Of a stretch of DNA of 64,000 nucleotides, positions 12,145-40,686 are shown piece by piece; the stretch's first letter is position 1; every line of letters begins with the position of its first letter. The DNA is from Candidatus Pelearchaeum maunauluense. GTDB lineage: Archaea > Thermoproteota > Nitrososphaeria_A > Caldarchaeales > Caldarchaeaceae. The notes beneath the pieces were generated by a model, which was given only the letters and a program-made list of their open reading frames with translations, had not been told where the DNA came from and searched no databases. The translations under genes were made by a program, and so were the position numbers. The DNA lies in contig JANVYQ010000001.1 in NCBI GenBank assembly GCA_030059675.1, forward strand, positions 192,001 to 256,000, in the 5' to 3' direction.

Positions 12145-12225
12145 AGACGACGCTTATATAAAGTCAAACAAATAATAGCATCTCCCTAACAATAGTAGCA
12201 TGGGTAGAGAAGTGATATCAGGCAT

Positions 12226-12414
12226 GTGGAAAAATACTACGCAATAATGCTGACTGGCCTCCTCATACTCGTCCTAGGTGTTAGCGCGATTTTGCTGCTG
12301 GTAGAAGCTCCTCAGGGGCCGTTGACCGGCGTGTTTGTCTTGTTTAGCTTCGCTGCCATTGTTGTGAGTGGTGTAGCTATCTTTATGGCGTTGTCGTTTG
12401 GTGTTGCTGTTTAA
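12226..12414 (+). CDS. small two-TM membrane protein
   Basis: 62 aa, two hydrophobic stretches, fills an intergenic gap. Confidence 0.55.
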   Translation: MEKYYAIMLTGLLILVLGVSAILLLVEAPQGPLTGVFVLFSFAAIVVSGVAIFMALSFGVAV

Positions 12415-31574: not shown

Positions 31575-33123
31575 TCATGTGCTCACCAGGCTTGAGAGCT
31601 GCCGCCCTATTGAGGCGAATGCATCAAGCACAAAGCCGCTGAGGGCTGCTACGCCGAGATACGTTATGCCGCTGACCATCAGCAAGACCTCCGCGTGGAA
31701 CGTGAAGGTGAATATGGCGTCTCCGTCTGAGAGGTAGATGTTTAGTGCGCTTATGACCGCTACGGCCACCGCTATCCAGTAGAAGTATAGGGTTGTTAAT
31801 GTTGGTGGGATTGGTGTTATGAGTTGAAGGAACTGCGAGACTAGGGAGGATATTTCGTTGAATATGCCCATGAGCGAGTTCATTAGGCCGAATATTGCTA
31901 CCAGCGTCATCTGGAGGGGTATTACCATCCCCTTGAGAACCCCGCTCACTTGCTTACGCTTCTTATCACGAAGTAGCTGCGTTGTGAGGTACTCGTTCAC
32001 GACCTCAGCAGCGGTTGTTGGCTTACCGCCTGCGCGTAGCGTCTCGCCATAGGCGGCCATGCATTTATAGGCGATGTCGCTGAGCGTCTCCACACCGAAG
32101 AGCCTCAGCGCATGCGCCTGAGGTATGCCAATCCTTATACGCGCATATAGGTTTCTAATCAGCGCGTTAAGCGGGCCATAGTCGCTGAGCATCATCATCT
32201 TGGCCGCGCCAGCGGCCGAGCCTGTGACAGCTATGTAGTCGCCTAGGCTCTTGAAAACATCGGCATATACGCTTCTCTCTCCATAACCAGCCTAACCCAT
32301 CGCCTGCCAGCTATTCCATGCATCAATAGGGGGGCTGAGGCTATGAGCATGGAGAGCGGGCCAGGTATCAACGACCTCATCAACAACCCAGCGTCGCTGG
32401 GGGCTGGTAGCGTTAGTGGGAGTATGATAAGCACGGCCATGGAAGAGACTATGATGATGCGGGAGAGCTGCTCAAGTCTATGTAGTTTCTCAGGCCTATG
32501 TGGCTCTTTGTGCATGAGCCTTCTGCGTATGTTGTTCCTTAGAAAGAGAAGCGTCATGCTGGCTAACGTTGCTATGACTGCCAGGATGGAGATGTTCAGG
32601 ACGGTAGAAGAGTATTGTGAGCCGTAGATTATCGCCATGAGTAGGAACGCTACCGAGAGGAAGCCCATGGAGCTTAGGAGAGCTGAATACGACTCGGCAA
32701 GCCTCTTAAGCTTCTCAACCATCTTCTCAAACTCGGCCTCAGGAGACGCCAGAAACTTCTGGAACTCTATCAGCGTAAAATCGCCAAGACCTACGCCAGC
32801 CTGCGCGGCGTGGCTAAGCCTATTGAGAAGCTCGCGGTGGTTTTGGTCTATATTATCCGAGGCAGCAGCCCTAAGAGCGGCTGTCTGCAAGTACCCCCAC
32901 TTCTCAACCATCACCTGTATTTTGGCGAATAGATACGAGACTGGTGTTAGGAGCTTTTCGCGGCCTAGAATCCGTAGAGCGGTTTTGAGCGGTATCCCTG
33001 AAGCTCCTAGGCTTGTTAGGTAGAGTAGTGTTATTGGGTAGAGTTCTGACAGCCTTCTGTTTAGGGAGAATCGCTTGAGGAGCCTTGTTTTGTGGTTTGT
33101 TCTCTTATTTCTGTCTGAGCCAT
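31575..33123 (-). pseudogene. arlJ: archaellum platform protein ArlJ/FlaJ, frameshifted
   Basis: Multi-TM T2SS-F-like halves 32243-33154 and 31575-32198 joined by a missing T at 32254-32257 (restores FFKSLGDY...SDYGPLN); the ATG at 33123 is also out of frame. Confidence 0.85.
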
Positions 33124-34817
33124 ACGCTCTCTCCCCGCTCAACGCGCTCGGCAACCTTTGCCACGCCCTCGTCGTAGCAGAGCTTCACAACGTTCCAAAC
33201 CTGCTCGTAGTCGGTTATCCCCAGCTCCACTAGGCGCTGGAGAATCCACGCCCTCCTCTCCAGCTCGTCATAAACCCGCCGCGCATCGCGGCGCGAGAAA
33301 CCCATAAGAGTAAGTATCTTGGTCTCAAGAAGAAAGCTGTTTCCCTCACCCCTAAAACATGCACACCATCAACAGCATCCCAGCTGAAGAGCTCTATGAA
33401 GTCAAAACTATCCATGCTTGGGTCGTAGCCCGCCATCTCATTTACGCTCAGTATGCGGCGCTCAACCTTCCCTGTCCGCGGTATCCTTACCGCGCTCTGG
33501 ATTACTACGCAGTTGAGTATATCTATGTAGGTCTTGGGTATGTTTATCGGGTCTCCCGTGAGGCGTTGTATAACCTTCTCCACAGAGCCTGCGTGGAACG
33601 TTGCCAGCACTGGATGCCCTGTCTGCATGGCTTGGAATGCCACCGTGGCCTCGGCTCCGCGTATCTCGCCGACTATGATGAAGTTCGGCCTCTGCCTAAG
33701 CGCCGCCTTGAGCAGGTCAAAGAGCTCCACACTGGGTCCTCCCTGCTCGCCCTGCCTAGTAACCTCCCTAACCCAGTTGCCGTGGGGGACGATTATCTCA
33801 GGCGTGTCCTCTATGCTTATTATCTTGGCCTTTGGGTTGATGAAGACGCAGGCCGCTCTCAGGGCTGTTGTCTTCCCAGAGGCGGTCTCCCACAGAACCA
33901 TACACTAAAGCCATACTCAAGCAGTAGCCAGAGGTAGGCAGCCTCAAGGGCGCTGAGCGTGCCCCACTGTATCAGGCTGGTTATGCTCACAGGCTTCTCG
34001 GAGAACTTTCTTATCGTGAAGTTTGAGCCACACCTGCTAATATCGCTGCCGAACACTATGTTTATGCGCAAGCCGTCTGGGAGGGGGCGTCGACTATGGG
34101 CCGTCTATACGTTACAGGCCTCCCAGCCCTCTCCGAGAGCCTTAAGACAAAGCCATCAAGCTCCTCCGCGCCATTAAACCTAACGTTAGTCTCACAGCTT
34201 CCGAAGATTTTATGCTCAACAAACACGGGCCCGACGCCGTCGCATGGTATATCCTCTATGTATTGGTCGCGGATGAACGGCTCAAGCGGGCCTAGATAGA
34301 CCTTCTCCATGACCATCTCAAAGCGGAGCGCGTCAAACGTTTCCTGATTCACGTATATTGCGAGCAGCTTACCCTTACGTCTCGCTTCATTATATTCCCA
34401 GAGCTCTAGGCTGTCGTCAACTACTAGAATTTGGTCCAGCAGCTCCATGAGGAGCTGTTCATGCTCCTCTTTTGTCGCGAATGTTTTGGTAGCGTCTATG
34501 AGCGCCGCCATTCCTTCTTCAACCAGCATAAGCAGGTCCCGCGCCTCTGGAGGAGCTTGCGGCGTTACCGCGTTGTAATACGCGCGCTCACCCTCGCGCG
34601 AGTAGACGTGTATGAAGATTGGGACTCCCACTGGGTAGATTATGCTGAAGCTCTTCTGGTATCGTAGGTCTCTGGAGAGCTGTTCGCGGTACTCTATTGG
34701 CCTGCCTGTCCTGCGGCTCCATTCTATGATATACCTCTGTAGATGCGGGAAACGCGCGGCTATTCTTCTTATTTCTGCGCCGCCAGCGAGTTTTTGCTGG
34801 GAGACCTGAACCGACAT
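33105..34817 (-). pseudogene. arlI: archaellum motor ATPase ArlI/FlaI, three frameshifts
   Basis: Four ORF pieces; restored motifs PIVDA.LPDG.RINIVFG, NFTIRKF, CGETASGKTT, SIEDTPE, LRQRPNFIIVGEIRG, TGH..TFH; breaks at about 34085, 33890 and 33355. Confidence 0.92.
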
Positions 34818-34830
34818 GTATGGCGCCTCC

Positions 34831-35523
34831 TCATGCTTTGGCCTGTGAGAATGGGAGAACCTTTATCCCGAATGCTTGGTCAACCTCAAACGAGAGCGTA
34901 AGGCCTCCCTTGAGCTTCATGACTTGGAGAACGCGGACAAGCTTTTCGCCAACCTCCTTAACTGAGAGAACAAGATGTGCGTCAGATATTGAGCGGAGAC
35001 GCAGAAACATATCCTGGTCTACTGCGTATTGGTGGATTGTTATTATGACAGTTTTTCCATCCTCATCAACTACGTTTCTTATCCGCGTTAGGAAGTTTAG
35101 AATTTCCCTAGTATCGGCGTGTGTTAAGAGATATGTGAGCGAGTCCAGTATGAAGACGTCATGTTTCTTTTCCTGCTTCATGAATGAGGTTATAACGTTT
35201 AGCAGTATTGATGATATGTTATCAGCCCACTCAAGCGTCTTGACATGCAGCTCGCTTATCTTCAAGCTACCGTTAATGAAGTATGGCTTTACGTCCCAAG
35301 ATAGATTACTCATTCCATAGATTATTCCTTTGAGGCTTGTCTTGGTGGTTATGTAATATACTGTAAAGCCGCTTCTTAGAGCACCATAGCAATACTGCAT
35401 CGCGATTACTGATTTCCCGCTATCGTTGGCTCCTTCTATTAGGCAGAGGGGCGGGGTTGGTATTCCACCAACCTTCCTGTCCAGCTCGGGGTTGAAGCTC
35501 CGTATGACTGCGTCACCCGCCAA
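34831..35523 (-). CDS. arlH: archaellum protein ArlH/FlaH (KaiC/RecA-like ATPase), possibly degenerate
   Basis: NPELDRKVGGIP, EGANDSGKS, ILDSLT, SISDAHL, SFEVDQAFGIKVLP. Confidence 0.88.
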   Translation of the reverse strand: MAGDAVIRSFNPELDRKVGGIPTPPLCLIEGANDSGKSVIAMQYCYGALRSGFTVYYITTKTSLKGIIYGMSNLSWDVKPYFINGSLKISELHVKTLEWADNISSILLNVITSFMKQEKKHDVFILDSLTYLLTHADTREILNFLTRIRNVVDEDGKTVIITIHQYAVDQDMFLRLRSISDAHLVLSVKEVGEKLVRVLQVMKLKGGLTLSFEVDQAFGIKVLPFSQAKA

Positions 35524-36046
35524 CCCACTCAGCCCCCACAAAACGAACCAAGACTGGATACTGCCCGTCAATCAAATCATCGAGCCATGCCTCAACCTCT
35601 ATCGTTTCACGCACATTCCAGATACCAGAATAACCATCAACAAGGTCTATGTGGTCTAGTAGCTCGCCAGCAAAACCGTTGGTATATACAGCTATTATAC
35701 GCCATCCCTCTGGTTTCGCCCTACCTGGGTCGTAAGACAGCCATACACTACGTAAAGCGCCATCAGTCTTTCTTACGTATGTGATTATTACATCAACGTA
35801 TCTAAAGTTGGCCGCCCTATGCGCGTATGGCCCTTCGTTCTCCACGTAGAATTGGATAAGATGGGGCTGGACGACCGTTATGTTTAGTATTTTGTAGTGG
35901 TTTTGTCTTAATGCTATTTCTGCTGATTCTATCGTTGATTTCTGTAATTCTACCAGCAGGCTACCTGCTGCCGTGAATAGTAATAGGGCTGGGATAAGTG
36001 TCATGGCCGCAAGCCACGCAGCAGCTATCGTGGCGAAGCCCGACAT
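35513..36046 (-). CDS. arlF: archaellum stator protein ArlF/FlaF-like
   Basis: N-terminal TM (MSGFATIAAA...), VENEG, VDVIITY, GIWNVRETIEV; position between arlG and arlH. Confidence 0.7.
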   Translation of the reverse strand: MSGFATIAAAWLAAMTLIPALLLFTAAGSLLVELQKSTIESAEIALRQNHYKILNITVVQPHLIQFYVENEGPYAHRAANFRYVDVIITYVRKTDGALRSVWLSYDPGRAKPEGWRIIAVYTNGFAGELLDHIDLVDGYSGIWNVRETIEVEAWLDDLIDGQYPVLVRFVGAEWVGG

Positions 36047-36057
36047 GTCGGAACACA

Positions 36058-37233
36058 CTATACTGAGAAGTAGTAATCAGACTTCTGGCCCAGATAGGCC
36101 ACGAACCTAACGAAGTACTCGCCAGCGCTCAACGTGAAGTTAAGCGTAATCGTTATGAGTAGTGTCTCGCCTGGGTCCCATCTTCCGTCGTTATCAACGT
36201 CGTTCATGGCTGTGTATGTCCAGCCCAGTGATGTTCCTTGGTATGGTATACTTACCAACATGCTTCGGTTCCCTAGGAAGATGTCGGATAGCTTAACCAG
36301 CTCTGGGTGTATGTCTGCGCTTCCCGTATTCTTTACCCATGCTCTTACCTCGCTGCTCCCAGAGGTTGATGTGGCGAATATTATCTCCGTATCTATTGAG
36401 AGCTCCTTTTTGAGCCGTTCTATTTTTTCGCGGTGCGCTTGGCCGAGGTCTCCCAGTGTGGTGAATACCGATGCAGAGAACGCCGACGCAGCCACTATAG
36501 CGGCTATCAGGATTATTGCCTCAGCTATCACGTAGCCCGTCGGCATACCCTTAGAACCCCCAGACTTTCCGTGAATATTGGACTGGCCTGAGAGGCCATG
36601 AAGCCTGTCAAACGCCGTGAGGAGAAGCAATAGTAGTGGGCCGTCTTCCTCATGCGCTACTTTTGATAGTAGATAGAGAACAACCAACACATTACCCAGA
36701 CCATAGTTCTTAGGAGCCAGCGACTCGTATTGAAGGCCAAAATCACTTCTGGCAGAGAGTTCCAGCGCTTCTTTAACGTCATCGGCTATATCCTTAGGCA
36801 ACAATCCTTTCCAGGCCATCATATTTACTATGTTTAAGACCTGCTCGCGGCCAACGAGACCTATCATAAGATACGTGGCAGCCATTATGTTTAGGAACCT
36901 ACCGAGACTTCTCCCCTCTGTTCTACGCGGTATTATTGATAACTGTTCATAATGCTGTTTTAAGGGCTCTATCTGCTGATGAGGCTCTTCTTTATGCTGT
37001 TCCATGTCGGACTTTTTACTCTGCTGGGTTTTTAGCTCAGGGATGTTTGAGCCTAGAAGCGCGCTAACATAGGTGAATGGGTTTTCAAGTGTTCCGAGAA
37101 TTTCACGCACATCTAGGAGTGTCTTCTCTAATGGCTCCTTGAGGCTCTTCACCTCTTCCTCAAGTTGCCGCAGTTTCTTTTCTAAAGGGTCGCGGGATGG
37201 AATCTCTTCGCCTGCCAATACCTCCACCTCCAA
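36058..37233 (-). CDS. arlG: in-frame fusion of an ArlC/D/E-like coiled-coil protein (about 36547-37233) with ArlG/FlaG (36058-36546)
   Basis: N-part LEEEVKSLK...LLDVRE.L..LENPF; C-part MPTGYVIAEAIILIAAIVAASAF...WVKNTG...WDPGETLLI typical of ArlG. Confidence 0.72.
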   Translation of the reverse strand: MEVEVLAGEEIPSRDPLEKKLRQLEEEVKSLKEPLEKTLLDVREILGTLENPFTYVSALLGSNIPELKTQQSKKSDMEQHKEEPHQQIEPLKQHYEQLSIIPRRTEGRSLGRFLNIMAATYLMIGLVGREQVLNIVNMMAWKGLLPKDIADDVKEALELSARSDFGLQYESLAPKNYGLGNVLVVLYLLSKVAHEEDGPLLLLLLTAFDRLHGLSGQSNIHGKSGGSKGMPTGYVIAEAIILIAAIVAASAFSASVFTTLGDLGQAHREKIERLKKELSIDTEIIFATSTSGSSEVRAWVKNTGSADIHPELVKLSDIFLGNRSMLVSIPYQGTSLGWTYTAMNDVDNDGRWDPGETLLITITLNFTLSAGEYFVRFVAYLGQKSDYYFSV

Positions 37234-37242
37234 ACACCCCTA

Positions 37243-37776
37243 TCATTTTGGAATCACGACAAACTCGCAATATTCACCACCGTTGAGAATGCATGTACTC
37301 TCCCAAACCTCCGCACTGCTCTCCATGTATTTGTTGAAGAGCGCGCGAAGCAGCCCTTTTATGAAGCAGCAGCCAACACTTGTTCTCTTATGGCTATGCG
37401 GCAGATCATTTAGGAGGAATGAAATAGGTATCCAGCCGCTGAGGCGGACAAGTACTCCTGAGCGTTCTCCGACAAGGCTTCTGAAAACCGCCAGCTCACT
37501 TCCAAACTGGCCTTTAATCAGCATGTATTCCCGTAGTAATCTCTCTGAGACCGTTAGTATATCTCCCTCGGTTTCCTCAACCTCCTCCGAGCACTCATAC
37601 AGTCTCTCTGCCTCGTATTCGCCTAGTTGCTCCAGCAGGTTGGCCGCCGCGCGCACACCTATGGAGCGCGCGAGCGAGATTCCGATGAACTGAACAAACG
37701 ACCTATCAAACAGTATCCTCTCCCTACGCACAGCGGCTCCCTCTGTTTTGAAGGATTTAAAATGAATCGTATTCAT
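37243..37776 (-). CDS. V4R-domain protein
   Basis: C-terminal CCFIKGLLRALF...VWESTCILNGGEYCEFVV; real start may be GTG at 37731. Confidence 0.8.
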   Translation of the reverse strand: MNTIHFKSFKTEGAAVRRERILFDRSFVQFIGISLARSIGVRAAANLLEQLGEYEAERLYECSEEVEETEGDILTVSERLLREYMLIKGQFGSELAVFRSLVGERSGVLVRLSGWIPISFLLNDLPHSHKRTSVGCCFIKGLLRALFNKYMESSAEVWESTCILNGGEYCEFVVIPK

Positions 37777-37846
37777 ATCTTATTAAAATAAGATTTGAGA
37801 TGTATAAAAATTCATAAACAAACTTATTTAGAATACTACTGAAATA

Positions 37847-38654
37847 ATGATAAAAATACAACAGGATAATTGGAAAAGCAAAAAGATGGAGACGGGGATT
37901 AACTGGGCTTGAGACAGCGATTATACTGATAGCCTTCGTCATCGTCGCCAGCGCCTTCGCCGTAGTCAGCAGTTTCAAGATAGATAGACTTCAGATGGAG
38001 GGGTTTTCCCCAGGCCTAAGGCTCTTCCAAGAGCTTATGGGGGCTTGGGGTGGGTTCACCCTGACAGGGGATGAGGCTGACGAGGGCTCCGATGAACTCA
38101 TGAGGAGCCCGAGGCTGATGAATCCCAAGACTTACGTATGTCTATGAAAGACTACGTAGGTCAGAACCCGTCCTAAATCTGGACATGTTCACGACGCAGA
38201 AGAGCTCAGAAGCCATGCAGGCTGGCTTGCAGGGGTCGCTCAGCTCTATAGAGATTGCGGGCGCGGTCATAGCCCAGGCCGACACAACTGTAACGCCAGC
38301 TAAGGTGAAGAATATCACCATACACATCAAGACGGCTGTCGGGAAGGCAGCCCCATAGACATGTCAAAGGATAAGCTCGTAATAGCCTACCGAGACCCCA
38401 ACACGTTCCTAGAGAACATCTACACAGATACGTACATTCTTAACAATAACATAACCGTAGCAGAAGTAACAGGCGATGGCGACTCTGTGCTGGAGTATGG
38501 TGAGGTCTGGAAAATCGTCATAGCCATACCAGAGCTGGCCAACCTAAACCCCAACGACATATTCGCGGTGGAGATAAAGCCACCTGTAGGCTCGCTACTG
38601 AAGGTTGAGCGAAGGCTACCACCCGCCTTCGACGCTGTTATGGACCTGACCTAA
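37847..38654 (+). pseudogene. arlB: archaellin ArlB/FlaB, interrupted
   Basis: Class III signal RRG|LTGLETAIILIAFVIVASAFA, then after the insert VLNLDMFTTQKSSEA...G...S.E..G, IDMSKDKLVIAY, GDGDSVLEYGE, F.VEIKPPVG; frameshifts at about 37853 and 38350 plus a 202-bp insertion. Confidence 0.92.
37968..38169 (+). mobile_element. 202-bp non-autonomous structured insertion, probably IS200/IS605-derived (tnpB 3' tail / right end)
   Basis: Cleanly splits the archaellin N-terminal helix with GTC on both sides; several hairpins; no terminal inverted repeats and no transposase. The insertion is seen directly; the family assignment is inference. Confidence 0.7.
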
Positions 38655-38721
38655 CCCCAAAATCCCACACCATTTTTATGGCTAATACTAATATAGTGAG
38701 CCACGTCGCTGCACTACGTTT

Positions 38722-39702
38722 ATGACGCTGCTCACAGAACTGGCATACGCGGGGCTCATCATAATAGCCTCATTTGGCATTGCTTCATTATCTTGGGTTA
38801 TTCTAAAGAGATACGCGACCTCATGGGTTACGAAGACCAAAACACCGCTTGACGATATCATCATACAAGTAGTGAGGCTACCGCTCTACCTATCCATACT
38901 ACTGGTGGGCATTAACCTAGCTCTTAAGAGGATTGGCATTTTTGAGCCGTATCTACGCTACCTGGACATGGGATTCTATGCCATGTGGGCAGTCATCATC
39001 GGCCGCATATTTTACCGATTCACCGACTCGGCTGTTCCAGTACTGGCTAGGAAGGCCGATATACCGCTAACCCCCGCTGAAGTGATTAGAAAGACGATAA
39101 AGTGGATAATCATAATCGCCATCATAGTATCGCTCTTCGCTATAGTAGGAATAGAGATGAGCGGCGTCATCTCTGTGATAATGCTAGTCCTGGGCACCCT
39201 GATAATCCTAGCATTCGCAACGTGGAGCATAATGGGCAACATAACCGCTGGCGTAGTTCTAATGATATGGAGACCCATAGAGGTCGGAGACTATATAGAG
39301 ATAAGCCCAGACAACATACAAGGCCGCGTGGAAAACATCAACCTAATGTTCACACGCCTCCGTATGAAGACTGGTGAGACGATGAACATACCAAACACCA
39401 TGGTTCTCCAGAAGTATGTGCGAAACCTCAGCAAGTCAGGAACCTACCTGATACAGCTCTCCTACAAGTTCAACGTCTCGCAAGACCCTGAGACCGTGTC
39501 AGCTCTGCTTATAGACGCTGCCGAGAAGACCGAGGGAATCCTCAAGAACCCCAGGCCATTCGTCAAGGTTAAGAATATTGAAGACGACTCTGTGGTTTAC
39601 GAGCTGAATGCGTATATAAACAGGCCTGCCGACCACGAGGAGATAACCTCTACACTCAGGTTAAATGTGCTTAAAACACTCAAGTCATCTCAAGGACATT
39701 AG
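38722..39702 (+). CDS. small-conductance mechanosensitive channel (MscS family)
   Basis: TKTKTPLDD, GNITAGV...RPIEVGDYI..G.VENINL..T...IPN, P.P.V...YEL. Confidence 0.9.
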   Translation: MTLLTELAYAGLIIIASFGIASLSWVILKRYATSWVTKTKTPLDDIIIQVVRLPLYLSILLVGINLALKRIGIFEPYLRYLDMGFYAMWAVIIGRIFYRFTDSAVPVLARKADIPLTPAEVIRKTIKWIIIIAIIVSLFAIVGIEMSGVISVIMLVLGTLIILAFATWSIMGNITAGVVLMIWRPIEVGDYIEISPDNIQGRVENINLMFTRLRMKTGETMNIPNTMVLQKYVRNLSKSGTYLIQLSYKFNVSQDPETVSALLIDAAEKTEGILKNPRPFVKVKNIEDDSVVYELNAYINRPADHEEITSTLRLNVLKTLKSSQGH

Positions 39703-39704
39703 CC

Positions 39705-40686
39705 ATGCAGGGTATGGAGACTAGGGAGCACGCGTTAATAGGGCTTGTGATAATCTCGATAATAATAGCTACTGGCTCTATCTTATTCTCATTCATGAAG
39801 GGCATAAACATCTTTGACGCGTTCTACTGGACGATAACTGTATTGACAACGATTGGCTTTGGGAATATTGTACCAACGACTCCACAGGCTAAGATTCTGT
39901 ATATAGCGCTGGTAGTGTCGGGTATAGCGTTTTATGGCTATTTCGTAACCAGCATAAGCGAGTCAAAGCCGAAAACATCTTAGCAGCGTATTTGCCTGGG
40001 ATATACATGTCGCGTAGGTTGCAGAACCATACGATAATAATTGGCTGGAATAGGTTCTCTGAGGCTGCCTATGAATAGCTGGAGATAAACGGCAGAAATC
40101 CAGTCGTTGTTGTTGAGGATGAAGAGAGGGCGCGTATGCTCTCTAGGAGCGGTGTTAGGGTTATGTATGGCGACCCCGCAGATGAGAATATTCTAAAAGA
40201 AGCGGGGATAGGTGGATGTAGTTCTCTATAATCATAACTGATGTAAATACTGAGAAGAAGCTTATCTATATGCTCAAGACACGAAAGCTACGCGGGGGTG
40301 TTCCTATCATAGTTCTGAGCAGGAAGCGGGGGATGCGCGACATCTATAAACAAGCGGGAGCAACGCGCATAGTTGACGCATACGATATTGTTGGAAGGCT
40401 TCTGGCGGGAAGTGTCTTTGAGCCGCTAGCGAGTGAGGTTTTATATGATATGGCTGAATCCTCCAAGGATCTAGACATAACCGAGGCGGGGGTAGGAGTA
40501 GAAGCAACGATAGAAGAGCTGGAGCAGCAAGGATTCAAAGCACACATAATACTCGTAGAACGGAACAATGAGAGAATATACACGCCACCATATAATTTCA
40601 GGCTAAAACCTGGCGATAAGGTTGTTTTGGTTGGAAATGCCAGCGATATAGCTAGGGACTTGAGAATGCTCGGCGGTGGGTCATAG
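39705..40686 (+). pseudogene. two-TM potassium channel with RCK (TrkA-N/TrkA-C) domains, disrupted
   Basis: Pore DAFYW...TTIGFGNIVP; RCK NHTIIIGWNRF...YGDPADENILKEAGI; frameshift at about 39960, TAG at 40076-40078, frameshift at about 40225. Confidence 0.88.

What the first reader, a model, noticed from the sequence alone, without database searches (positions are those of the whole stretch)
37968..38169. 202-bp non-coding mobile element inside the archaellin gene, possibly an orphan TnpB omegaRNA module whose guide would be archaellin sequence
Seen: the archaellin helix ...ASAFAVV|VLNL.. is split by a 202-bp insert with GTC on both sides, no terminal inverted repeats and no transposase. The insert folds extensively: a long hairpin CCCCAGGCC-TAAGGCTCTT/AAGAGCTTA-GGCTTGGGG (about 38008-38050), CCCTG/CAGGG, and two subterminal imperfect palindromes AGACTTACGTATGTCT and GACTACGTAGGTC just before the end ...CAGAACCC. 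Read in the archaellin frame it gives LQMEG..GAWGGFTLTGDE..DELMRSPRLMNPKTYVCL*, which resembles, from memory only, the low-complexity C-terminal tails of thermophilic archaeal TnpB. Established: IS200/IS605 elements have subterminal hairpins instead of inverted repeats, and their omegaRNA overlaps the tnpB 3' end and right end, taking flanking DNA as guide. Inference: this is a MITE-like element reduced to its RNA scaffold. Here the guide would be GTCCTAAATCTGGACATG..., so a TnpB supplied in trans could target intact archaellin alleles.
Basis: partly seen in the sequence, partly recalled or inferred. Interest (0 to 1): 0.8.

Follow-up and report, generated by a model that had tools for sequence, protein, structure and literature searches.

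The report
Gene-less TnpB mini-transposon inside archaellin gene
A 208-base gene-less offshoot of an IS607-type jumping gene, keeping only the transposon ends and the folded guide-RNA scaffold of the TnpB nuclease, sits inside an already decaying archaeal motility-filament gene; it is a known kind of element and looks stranded, because the assembled genome lacks the enzymes that would move or use it.

Summary
The insert is real, but it is 208 bp (37962-38169), not 202 bp. The left 'GTC' belongs to the element.

It is one of at least 11 copies in this genome. It is an internally deleted IS607-family element. It keeps 30 nt of the left end, and the last ~180 nt of tnpB together with the right end.

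Full-length relatives in other archaeal genomes carry a serine-recombinase tnpA and a 418-432-aa tnpB. The C-terminal tail of that TnpB is 75% identical to the insert's translation.

The retained part folds into a structure kept across 10 copies from 5 genomes. 96.7% of cells are paired and 7 pairs show compensatory changes. It ends exactly at the right boundary, as a TnpB omegaRNA scaffold should.

Every copy lies 3' of ..GCC and ends ..CCC. This fits a CC crossover core and a WHGCC target/TAM.

The assembled genome has no cognate tnpB, no serine tnpA and no Y1 tnpA. The archaellin gene carries two further frameshifts.

Verdict: a known kind, an omegaRNA-bearing PATE/MITE, probably inert here. 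The scan has noted gene-less IS607/TnpB remnants on other DNA before.

The parts
37847..37961 (+). 5' part of the archaellin (arlB/flaB-type) pseudogene: leader and N-terminal hydrophobic helix (..GLTGLETAIILIAFVIVASAFA). No ATG/GTG/TTG is in frame with the body; the ATGs at 37847 and 37886 are one base out of frame and run into TGA at 37910-37912.
   Evidence: Read from the sequence. No + strand ORF covers 37896-37967. Alignment with the G004 and G002 genes is, and the intact orthologues are.
37957..37961 (+). TCGCC: pre-existing host sequence that matches the conserved left-flank motif (WHGCC) of all copies. It is the presumed target motif / TAM, and its last two bases (CC) are the presumed serine-recombinase crossover core.
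   Evidence: GCC directly precedes the left end in 20 of 21 distinct left flanks; the 21st has GCC plus an extra GTAG. GCC is present at the uninterrupted site in G001 and G002. Homology between copy C15b and G001:C20 ends exactly at ..CTGCC.
37962..37991 (+). Left-end remnant of the element (30 nt, GTAGTCAGCAGTTTCAAGATAGATAGACTT). The internal deletion joins it to the tnpB tail at a CTT microhomology (37989-37991).
   Evidence: Alignment of own copies. Comparison with the full-length L015, where the left end continues ..GACTTAAATAGAC.. and the tnpB tail reads ..ATACCTTCAGATGGAGG. Query positions 1-33 and 31-211 lie about 1.23 kb apart in G039:C9.
37992..38169 (+). Remnant of the tnpB 3' end (codons for ..LQMEG..FTLTGDEADEGSDELMRSPRLMNPKTYVCL*) together with the right end; this is the presumed omegaRNA scaffold. 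Helices in window coordinates: 38008-38024/38031-38050; 38052-38057 with 38164-38169 (long-range closing stem GGGUUC/GAACCC); 38059-38062/38067-38070; 38075-38116; 38129-38162. It ends ..CAGAACCC.
   Evidence: tblastn gives 75% identity over 56 aa, E = 6.5e-22. Consensus structure of 10 copies: 55 pairs, 96.7% of cells paired against 32-50% when slid, 7 pairs with compensatory change. The window copy keeps 55 of 55 pairs, 8 of them G-U. The right end is conserved to ..GAACCC in 24 of 24 element copies, followed by unrelated sequence.
38170..38189 (+). Host sequence immediately 3' of the right end (GTCCTAAATCTGGACATGTT), the position from which a TnpB omegaRNA would take its guide. It is also the resumption of the archaellin reading frame (VLNLDMF..).
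   Evidence: Position relative to the right end. Unique in the own genome: the next best site has 4 mismatches. Its use as a guide is inferred from the published TnpB mechanism, not tested here.
38170..38654 (+). 3' part of the archaellin pseudogene. Two extra bases within about 38347-38355, relative to both G001 and G004, shift the frame and give TAG at 38356-38358. The rest of the gene (38361-38654) is in another frame.
   Evidence: Alignment. Pfam Arch_flagellin (PF01917) matches both pieces below its cut-off: 22.1 and 26.1 bits against a cut-off of 29.5.

Best explanation
The insert at 37962-38169 is a non-autonomous, gene-less derivative (a PATE/MITE) of an IS607-family insertion sequence.

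Parent element. It carries a serine-recombinase tnpA and an RNA-guided-nuclease gene tnpB. An internal deletion between short repeats (..ATAGACTT / ..ATACCTT) removed everything except 30 nt of the left end and the last ~180 nt. That last part is the tnpB 3' tail plus the right end, the segment that in TnpB elements encodes the omegaRNA scaffold.

Insertion. It integrated conservatively, with no duplication, at a ..TCGCC site in the N-terminal helix codons of the archaellin gene, in the same orientation as the gene. This most likely happened by serine-recombinase exchange across a CC core that is shared by the target and the element's right terminus. That step is inferred.

Possible RNA. If transcribed, for example from the archaellin promoter, the RNA would be an omegaRNA scaffold followed by the guide GUCCUAAAUCUGGACAUG... 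With a cognate TnpB it would direct cleavage of uninterrupted archaellin alleles of the same sequence that carry the WHGCC motif. That is the general 'homing/retention' logic of these elements, not a dedicated anti-archaellin function.

Present state. In the genome as assembled there is no cognate TnpB and no transposase. The element is therefore most likely a stranded remnant, and one of at least three disabling lesions in a decaying archaellin gene.

Shown: multi-copy, origin by deletion, parent gene content, conserved fold, conserved flank motif, absence of the enzymes from the assembly. Inferred: transcription, guide function, recombination mechanism, present inactivity.
For: Copies. There are 12 BLAST places and 11 strong nhmmer hits in the own genome, with unrelated flanks.

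Parent.
- In G039:C9 the left 33 nt and the right 181 nt of the insert lie about 1.23 kb apart, around a 418-aa ORF.
- That ORF hits PF07282 at E = 5.3e-13.
- It aligns to solved TnpB, Cas12f and Fanzor-type chains.
- Its last 56 aa are 75% identical to the insert's translation.

Transposase. Longer copies (L067, L070, L071) have a 201-202-aa ORF between the left end and tnpB. It carries MerR-type HTH and Resolvase domains (PF00239 at E = 2.3e-22 and 2.1e-18), and other loci hold remnants of it.

Ends.
- No inverted repeats and no duplication.
- GCC lies at the left flank in 20 of 21 distinct copies.
- ..GAACCC lies at the right end in 24 of 24 copies.
- GCC belongs to the host at two sites.
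- This matches published IS607 behaviour. IS607 has an identical dinucleotide at the termini and the target. Its TAM equals the TnpA target. Its scaffold ends in the same two bases as the TAM but differs at -3 (passages read).

Fold.
- 55 pairs, with 96.7% of cells paired.
- 16 cells show double changes against 5.2 expected, with 0 of 500 shuffles as high.
- Slid controls give 32-50% paired.
- The window copy keeps 55 of 55 pairs and uses 8 G-U pairs, which the opposite strand could not form.

Stranding.
- PF00239: 0 hits. PF01797: 0 hits.
- PF07282: 1 hit, in an unrelated rearranged fragment.
- tblastn with the cognate TnpB and TnpA finds only the tail remnants.

Host gene decay. The archaellin gene is also frameshifted. 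The ATPase-like and membrane-protein-like archaellum genes appear split.
Against: - No transcript evidence could be obtained.
- The assembly is 94% complete in 21 contigs. One partial copy runs off a contig end (C15:42449-42538), so a full-length copy in a gap cannot be excluded.
- The CC-core / serine-recombinase integration rests on analogy. IS607 and the Clostridium IStron use GG, not CC.
- The long-range stem GGGUUC/GAACCC never varies, so covariation says nothing about it.
- The five ~168-bp copies in this genome lack 43 nt, including the 5' arm of that stem. Transposition therefore does not need the full scaffold. Retention of the scaffold in the 208-bp form may simply reflect where the deletion happened to end.
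- No Rfam family matches.
- About half of the parent-clade TnpBs have Asn in place of the third RuvC Asp, so even the parents may not all be nucleases.
- The window allele lacks 6 nt (one GCCTTC unit) relative to 3 of 3 orthologues. The empty-site reconstruction is therefore not base-perfect.
Confidence: 0.85

Rival explanations
1. The element is a working trans-acting guide module. It is transcribed (for instance by read-through from the archaellin promoter) and loaded by a cognate TnpB encoded in an unassembled full-length copy or delivered by an incoming element. It would then direct cleavage of intact archaellin alleles, so that the interrupted allele is copied into them (homing) and spreads in the population.
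For: The window copy keeps all 55 consensus pairs, whereas its closest paralogue C15a keeps 50. It lies in the sense orientation of a gene with an AT-rich upstream region. The flank motif TCGCC sits in the TAM position. Meers et al. state that PATEs often encode omegaRNAs that TnpBs encoded elsewhere would have to act on in trans (passage read). One partial copy ends at a contig edge.
Against: No cognate tnpB was found in 1.79 Mb at 94% completeness. No second archaellin target exists in the genome. The gene has two more frameshifts, so the allele is decaying rather than being maintained. The G001 allele mismatches the guide at 3 of 18 positions. The copies differ by 4-6% from one another, so they are not recent.
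Confidence: 0.1
2. One reading: it is an IS200/IS605-type PATE. It would be moved as single-stranded DNA by a Y1 (HUH) TnpA that recognises subterminal hairpins and inserts 3' of a short target motif.
For: There is a strong right-end hairpin (DNA fold z = -2.82; covariation). A conserved 5' flank motif is present and there is no duplication. Haloarchaeal PATEs derived from IS1341-type tnpB elements by repeat-mediated core deletion are described (passages read).
Against: The autonomous relatives encode a serine recombinase, not a Y1 enzyme. No hairpin is predicted in the first 100 nt of three full-length left ends or in the window's left end (z = -0.60 to +0.51). PF01797 has 0 hits in the own genome. 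Its two hits in five element-rich relatives lie in loci without these ends. The shared terminal dinucleotide fits serine recombination.
Confidence: 0.04
3. The insert is removed from the archaellin mRNA, either as a self-splicing IStron-like intron or as an archaeal bulge-helix-bulge intron, so that the gene still works.
For: IS607-family IStrons that splice out of host mRNA exist in Clostridia (abstract and passages read). The insert lies in the sense orientation.
Against: No group I intron or any other Rfam family matches at E <= 1. The fold with flanks does not bring the two junctions into one helix. The gene has a start-frame defect and a +2 frameshift outside the insert.
Confidence: 0.01

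Closest known systems
omegaRNA-encoding PATEs / gene-less IS derivatives (palindrome-associated transposable elements: Dyall-Smith et al. 2011, PMC3119063, passages read; Meers et al. 2023 preprint, PMC10055086, passages read)
   Same: Gene-less, multi-copy, no inverted repeats and no duplication. Derived from tnpB-bearing elements by repeat-mediated core deletion. Some keep part of the tnpB C-terminal coding region, and they 'often encode omegaRNAs' that a TnpB made elsewhere must use.
   Different: Those described belong to IS200/IS605 (Y1 TnpA, palindromes near both ends). This one derives from an IS607-type parent, has no left-end hairpin, and comes from a thermophilic archaeal lineage.
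IS607-family elements: IS607 / IS1535 (Chen et al. 2018, PMC6188088, passages read) and the Clostridium botulinum IS607-type IStron (bioRxiv 10.1101/2023.11.20.567912, passages read)
   Same: Serine-recombinase TnpA with an N-terminal HTH, plus TnpB. No inverted repeats and no duplication. The same dinucleotide lies at both junctions and in the target. The TnpA target motif equals the TnpB TAM. The omegaRNA scaffold ends with the TAM's last two bases but differs at -3 (TGGG vs UCGG there; HGCC vs ACCC here).
   Different: The core is CC and the motif is WHGCC instead of GG/TGGG. The window's copy has lost both genes. No intron is present. Nothing here was tested biochemically.
Archaeal tnpB 3'-end RNAs: sotRNAs of IS1341-type genes in Halobacterium (PMC4615843, listing and start of abstract seen) and the SisTnpB1 omegaRNA of Sulfolobus islandicus (bioRxiv 10.1101/2023.03.06.531077, passages read)
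   Same: A structured sense RNA overlapping the tnpB 3' end and right end. The guide is taken from the flank. A thermophilic archaeal TnpB has been shown to be TAM-dependent and RNA-guided.
   Different: No sequence or Rfam-level similarity was shown here, the TAM differs (TTTAA there), and those RNAs sit next to their tnpB.
TldR, nuclease-dead TnpB-derived RNA-guided repressors (PMC10705468, listing and start of abstract seen; that some act on flagellin genes is recalled, not seen in a call)
   Same: A TnpB-type guide RNA aimed at a motility-filament gene. Half of the parent-clade TnpBs here carry Asn at the third RuvC position.
   Different: Here the guide is simply the insertion flank. No TnpB-like gene is linked, and no evidence of domestication was found.

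Membership tests
IS607 family (parent element) | Serine-recombinase TnpA with an N-terminal MerR-like HTH followed by the catalytic domain | tested here: met
   The 201-202-aa ORFs lie between the left end and tnpB in L067 and L070. Scores: PF00239 E = 2.3e-22 and 2.1e-18; MerR/HTH_17 E = 1e-8 to 1e-11. L071 aligns continuously over 202 aa, and remnants occur in L015, L016, L028, L029 and L073. The gene is absent from the window copy and from the own genome.
IS607 family (parent element) | tnpB downstream of tnpA | tested here: met
   The 418-aa ORF in L015 hits PF07282 at E = 5.3e-13 (49.4 bits, cut-off 26.3). PF01385 scores below its cut-off (20.8 vs 30.5). It also matches solved TnpB and Cas12f chains.
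IS607 family (parent element) | No terminal inverted repeats and no target-site duplication | tested here: met
   No terminal inverted pair was found. Flanks are unrelated on the two sides in 7 of 7 full own copies and in all rows.
IS607 family (parent element) | Identical 2-bp core at both junctions and in the target (GG in IS607) | tested here: inconclusive
   CC lies at the left junction (flank ..GCC) in 20 of 21 distinct copies and at the right terminus (..ACCC) in 24 of 24. GCC is present in uninterrupted sites. The pattern fits, but the dinucleotide is CC, not GG, and the exchange itself was not observed.
IS607 family (parent element) | Multiple subterminal TnpA-binding repeats in both ends | not tested
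   A(T/A)AGAC-like words recur in the left end and the right end when read by eye. No statistical test was made.
IS200/IS605 family | Y1 (HUH) TnpA associated with the element ends | tested here: not met
   PF01797 has 0 hits in the own genome. It has 1 hit each in G031 and G038, out of 5 element-rich genomes. Neither of those loci contains the left- or right-end words.
IS200/IS605 family | Subterminal hairpins at both ends | tested here: not met
   Right end: the DNA hairpin has z = -2.82. Left end: 3 full-length left ends and the window's left end give z = -0.60 to +0.51.
TnpB omegaRNA (reRNA) | Encoded at the tnpB 3' end and right end, with the scaffold ending at the transposon boundary | tested here: met
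   The conserved structured block runs from tnpB codon ~362 to the last base of the element in full-length copies.
TnpB omegaRNA (reRNA) | Conserved secondary structure supported by covariation | tested here: met
   Ten sequences from 5 genomes were compared. Of 55 pairs, 96.7% of cells are paired and 7 pairs have both-side changes (6 of 500 shuffles as high). The covariation score is 0.201 against 0.150. Slid controls give 32-50% paired. The sequences are related and part of the block is coding, so this is support, not proof.
TnpB omegaRNA (reRNA) | A transcript exists that extends about 16-20 nt into the flank and is bound by TnpB | not testable with these tools
TnpB binding needs RIP-seq or biochemistry.
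TnpB omegaRNA (reRNA) | Match to a curated RNA family (Rfam 15) | tested here: not met
   There are 0 matches at E <= 1 in window 37700-38500 on either strand.
PATE / MITE-like non-autonomous element | Too short to encode a transposase, several copies at unrelated sites, ends shared with a full-length element | tested here: met
   In the own genome there are two copies of about 208-210 bp, five of about 168 bp, and four partial copies. The left- and right-end words are shared with the L015 and L067 full-length elements.

The most novel reading that the evidence does not exclude
Orphan omegaRNA modules like this one may not be dead. When a full-length element of the same clade enters the cell, its TnpB could load guides from resident gene-less copies. 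Nearly half of the parent-clade TnpBs have Asn at the third RuvC position and may bind without cutting. The archaellin-derived guide would then drive or silence intact archaellin alleles, linking the spread of a mini-transposon to loss of motility in a hot-spring archaeal population. This would be an archaeal echo of TnpB-derived repressors acting on flagellin genes.
Probability: 0.05. Interest if true: 0.7.

Novelty: new member of a known kind. Interest (0 to 1): 0.3.

Why it matters
This case gives a clean reductive series within one element clade: tnpA plus tnpB, then tnpB only with tnpA remnants, then a 208-bp gene-less form, then a 168-bp form.

It suggests that IS607-type elements in thermophilic archaea can use a CC core and a WHGCC target/TAM instead of the GG/TGGG known from bacteria. 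That is useful for anyone mining TnpB nucleases with new TAMs.

It flags a D/N polymorphism at a catalytic position of the parent nucleases.

For annotation, it explains an apparently 'structured RNA' inside a broken archaellin gene. It also adds one more lesion to a decaying archaellum cluster.

It does not reveal a new mechanism.

Tried and rejected
1. Public sequencing runs for window 37700-38700: none was listed and no RNA holder was listed. Expression, allele polymorphism and read support could therefore not be examined, and read laying was not used.

2. Empty sites for six other own copies in G001, G002 and G004.
- None gave a clean uninterrupted site.
- For C15b, homology on the left reaches exactly ..CTGCC, but the right flank is diverged.
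- For C18, the G001 contig lacks a 754-nt block that contains the copy.
- C14 had no match in G001.

3. Rfam at E <= 1: no family.

4. Y1 transposase as the mobiliser: rejected.

5. Terminal inverted repeats or target duplication (another MITE class): rejected.

6. Splicing (group I or bulge-helix-bulge): no support.

7. The idea that GCC is the first three bases of the element rather than host sequence was rejected.
- Three of 3 orthologues keep an Ala codon before VLNL, GCC in G001 and G002 and GCG in G004.
- Homology between C15b and G001 runs through GCC.
- Under a CC-core exchange the boundary is in any case ambiguous by 2 nt.

8. Widespread assembly frameshifts as the cause of the broken archaellin: unlikely. 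ORFs of at least 100 aa cover 86.5% of the window, against 68% in 36001-40000. This could not be excluded without reads.

9. A literature search for TnpB together with archaellin found 2 papers, neither on this topic judging by title and abstract. A search for SMN1/ISC1733/IS607 gave one genome paper, which I did not read. Supplementary tables of the PATE and IS607 papers were not seen and may list similar archaeal elements.
Full report
**What is in the sequence**

The window's + strand at 37896-37961 encodes the conserved archaellin N-terminus (..GLTGLETAIILIAFVIVASAFA). The frame resumes at 38170 with VLNLDMFTTQKSSEAMQAGL... Pfam Arch_flagellin matches both downstream pieces weakly, at 22.1 and 26.1 bits against a cut-off of 29.5.

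The same-genus genome G001 has the uninterrupted sequence ..GCC TTC GCC TTC GCC GTC CTA AAC CTA GGC ATG... G004 and G002 encode intact 197- and 193-aa archaellins with ..ASAF(A/S)FAVLNLG... The interruption is therefore real.

**It is a repeat with defined ends**

The 202-bp stretch finds 12 places in the own 1.79-Mb, 21-contig genome:
- Seven are full-length. Two are long forms, the window copy and C15:12196-12405 at 94% identity. Five are ~168-bp forms that lack 43 nt.
- Five are partial pieces, four of them at contig ends.

A profile search gives the same 11 strong hits.

Across all distinct left ends that I could collect, from the own genome and from relatives:
- The element proper begins GTAGTCAGCAG.. 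in the own copies. The first six bases vary between genomes.
- It is directly preceded by GCC in 20 of 21 cases. The 21st has GCC plus an extra GTAG.
- Position -4 is never G (C 11, T 6, A 4). Position -5 is mostly A or T.
- The right end is ..GAACCC in 24 of 24 element copies, followed by unrelated bases.

GCC belongs to the host. It precedes GTCCTAA in the uninterrupted G001 and G002 genes. Homology between copy C15b and G001:C20 runs up to ..CTGCC and stops there.

The insert is therefore 37962-38169 (208 bp). The left 'GTC' is element sequence, and there is no duplication. No terminal inverted repeat is present.

**Where it comes from**

Eleven of 40 related genomes have matches at E <= 0.001. 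G001, the same-genus genome, has none.

In five genomes of the same order, positions 31-211 of the element match at 80-86%. Positions 1-33 match separately. In G039:C9 the two parts lie about 1.23 kb apart.

That locus (L015) holds a 418-aa ORF between the two parts. The ORF:
- hits the Cas12f1-like TNB domain of TnpB (PF07282, E = 5.3e-13);
- aligns to solved TnpB, Cas12f and Fanzor-type chains;
- ends ..LQMEGLSPSPKLFKELMRAWSGFTLTGEEADEGSNELKRSPKLMNPKSYVCPPKTT.

The window insert translates to the same tail, with 75% identity over 56 aa and E = 6.5e-22.

The junction in the short element (..ATAGACTT|CAGATGGAGG..) lies at a CTT shared by the left end (..ATAGACTTAAATAGAC..) and the tnpB tail (..ATACCTTCAGATGG..). 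The gene-less form therefore arose by deletion between short repeats.

**The parent is IS607-type, not IS605-type**

In L067, L070, L071 and L073 the left end lies about 630 nt upstream of tnpB, instead of about 170 nt.

The extra space holds a 201-202-aa ORF with an N-terminal MerR-type HTH and a resolvase catalytic domain. PF00239 scores E = 2.3e-22 and 2.1e-18. The ORF is frameshifted in L073. Other loci retain only pieces of it: L015 keeps residues 168-202, and L016 keeps 132-202.

This is the gene order and domain order of IS607-family serine transposases.

A Y1 transposase is not involved:
- PF01797 has 0 hits in the own genome.
- Its two hits among five element-rich relatives lie in loci without these ends.
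- No left-end hairpin is predicted, with z = -0.60 to +0.51 for four left ends. The right-end hairpin is clear at z = -2.82.

Published work on IS607 and on an IS607-type IStron reports the following (passages read):
- no inverted repeats and no duplications;
- an identical GG at the termini and the target;
- a TnpA target motif (TGGG) that equals the TnpB TAM;
- an omegaRNA scaffold ending ..UCGG, which shares the last two bases with the TAM and differs at -3.

The pattern here is the same with other letters: flank ..HGCC, terminus ..ACCC, shared CC, and a difference at -3. I read this as a CC core and a WHGCC target/TAM. This is an inference by analogy, and under it the boundary is ambiguous by 2 nt.

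**The retained part is a conserved fold**

Ten long-form 3' segments were aligned: two own gene-less copies and eight from G031, G032, G038 and G039, most of them part of coding tnpB tails. RNAalifold gives 55 pairs in nine helices.

Counting on that structure:
- 96.7% of cells are paired, against 32-50% when partners are slid by 1-3 columns.
- 7 pairs have changes on both sides (6 of 500 shuffles as high).
- 16 cells have double changes, against 5.2 expected (0 of 500 shuffles as high).

Where ACGU becomes AUGU in one arm, ACGU becomes ACAU in the other.

A long-range stem joins GGGUUC (38052-38057) to the last six bases GAACCC (38164-38169). It is invariant, so covariation neither supports nor opposes it.

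The window copy keeps 55 of 55 pairs. Eight of them are G-U pairs that the opposite strand could not form. The + strand also folds better (z = -4.63 against -2.40).

Position, strand and structure are those expected of a TnpB omegaRNA scaffold. No Rfam family matches, and no transcript evidence was obtainable.

**State of the element and of the host gene**

Searches of the assembled genome gave the following:

| Search | Result |
|---|---|
| Resolvase domain (PF00239) | 0 hits |
| Y1 transposase (PF01797) | 0 hits |
| TnpB TNB domain (PF07282) | 1 hit, in an unrelated rearranged fragment at C13:4111-7302 |
| tblastn with the cognate TnpB and TnpA | only the tail remnants |

The five short copies are 93.9-97.6% identical to each other. 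They are not fresh.

The archaellin gene has further lesions:
- No ATG/GTG/TTG is in frame with its body. The ATGs at 37847 and 37886 are one base out of frame.
- Two extra bases near 38347-38355, relative to G001 and G004, give a TAG at 38356.
- One GCCTTC unit is missing.

The neighbouring archaellum genes look split. A 223-aa fragment covers only positions 151-257 of the 370-position T2SSE model, and a 303-aa fragment carries a weak T2SSF hit.

ORF coverage elsewhere in the window is normal, at 86.5% overall. General assembly error is therefore an unlikely cause, though reads were not available to prove it.

**How it most likely works**

- Shown: it is a gene-less IS607-derived element carrying the scaffold region.
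- Inferred: it was inserted by a serine recombinase supplied in trans at a TCGCC site.
- Inferred: any RNA made from it would carry GUCCUAAAUCUGGACAUG.. as its guide.
- With a cognate TnpB, that RNA would target uninterrupted alleles of identical sequence next to WHGCC. This is the ordinary retention/homing logic of these elements.

The archaellin content of the guide is thus a consequence of the landing site. With no nuclease or transposase in the assembly, a decaying host gene, and a guide that mismatches the only available intact congeneric allele at 3 of 18 positions, I judge it stranded.

**Comparison with what is known, and novelty**

- Gene-less IS605-type derivatives (PATEs) formed by repeat-mediated core deletion were described in 2011. 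Some of them retain tnpB C-terminal sequence.
- That PATEs often encode omegaRNAs to be used in trans is stated in Meers et al. 2023.
- This scan has already reported gene-less IS607/TnpB remnants in hot-spring and Asgard archaea. One of those shares a few words with this element.
- Records carrying the same clade are titled as MAGs of Nitrososphaeria/Caldarchaeales, Bathyarchaeia and Methanomethylicales.

This is therefore a new member of a known kind. The modest points of interest are the CC/WHGCC motif, the complete reductive series, and the D/N polymorphism at the third RuvC position of the parent TnpBs. Among 21 loci of the clade, that position is N in 9, D in 10, G in 1 and deleted in 1.

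Noticed in passing
own genome, outside the window: G000:C13:34517-34783 (+) and G000:C18:10359-10628 (-): A second gene-less family of about 265 bp with the same architecture. It is flanked by ..GCC, has a related left end that continues ..AAATAGAC.. as in full-length elements, carries a diverged G+C-rich tail (..CTTCAGATGGGGG.., GGG(T/A)TCGACCC), and ends ..CCAGAACCC. There are two nearly identical copies.
   Followed up: partly
related loci L015, L016, L017, L022, L023, L027-L030, L033, L036, L037, L039, L041, L067, L069, L070, L072, L074-L076: The position that aligns with the third RuvC catalytic Asp of solved TnpBs varies among 21 loci of the parent clade. It is Asn in 9, Asp in 10, Gly in 1 and deleted in 1. 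The intact 418-aa ORF of L015 has Asn. The intact ORFs of L016 and L067 have Asp. The Asn forms could be decaying copies or nuclease-dead binders.
   Followed up: partly
window 31578-37776 (- strand): The archaellum cluster next to the archaellin gene looks degraded. The secretion-ATPase-like gene is represented by a 223-aa ORF covering only the middle of the T2SSE model plus a separate 251-aa ORF. The T2SSF-like membrane gene is in pieces of 207 and 303 aa. A 391-aa ORF carries an archaellin-like domain at residues 235-374. A 177-aa ORF has a weak V4R-domain hit below its cut-off.
   Followed up: partly
own genome G000:C13:4111-7302 (L013): This locus holds the only TnpB-domain hit in the genome. 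It is a 297-aa ORF on the - strand with a different tail. A 152-aa ORF that resembles a TnpB N-terminal part lies on the opposite strand about 400 nt away. Together they look like a rearranged remnant of another element clade.
   Followed up: no
related loci L023, L037, L041 and own short copies: The tail/scaffold region is modular. The own 168-bp copies and the tnpB-bearing L023 lack the 43-nt block that contains GGGTTC and the CCCT/GGGG stem. L037 and L041 instead lack the GGGCTCC..GGAGCCC hairpin. The same indels occur in coding and gene-less copies.
   Followed up: no
loci L066-L076: TnpBs of this clade, at 60-78% identity, occur in records titled as Nitrososphaeria/Caldarchaeales, Bathyarchaeia and Methanomethylicales MAGs. 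This suggests transfer of the element between archaeal classes that share hot habitats.
   Followed up: no
own genome G000:C18:1-1000 versus G001:C103: G001 joins positions 212 and 967 of the own sequence at 97-100% identity. The own genome therefore has a 754-nt block absent from G001, and that block contains one of the 168-bp copies.
   Followed up: no
own genome G000:C15, about 250-400 nt upstream of the copy at 12196-12405 (query positions 102-154): A ~50-nt stretch matches several places in G001, G002 and G004 at 84-98% identity. It is another short repeat or a conserved small gene next to this copy, and it was not identified.
   Followed up: no
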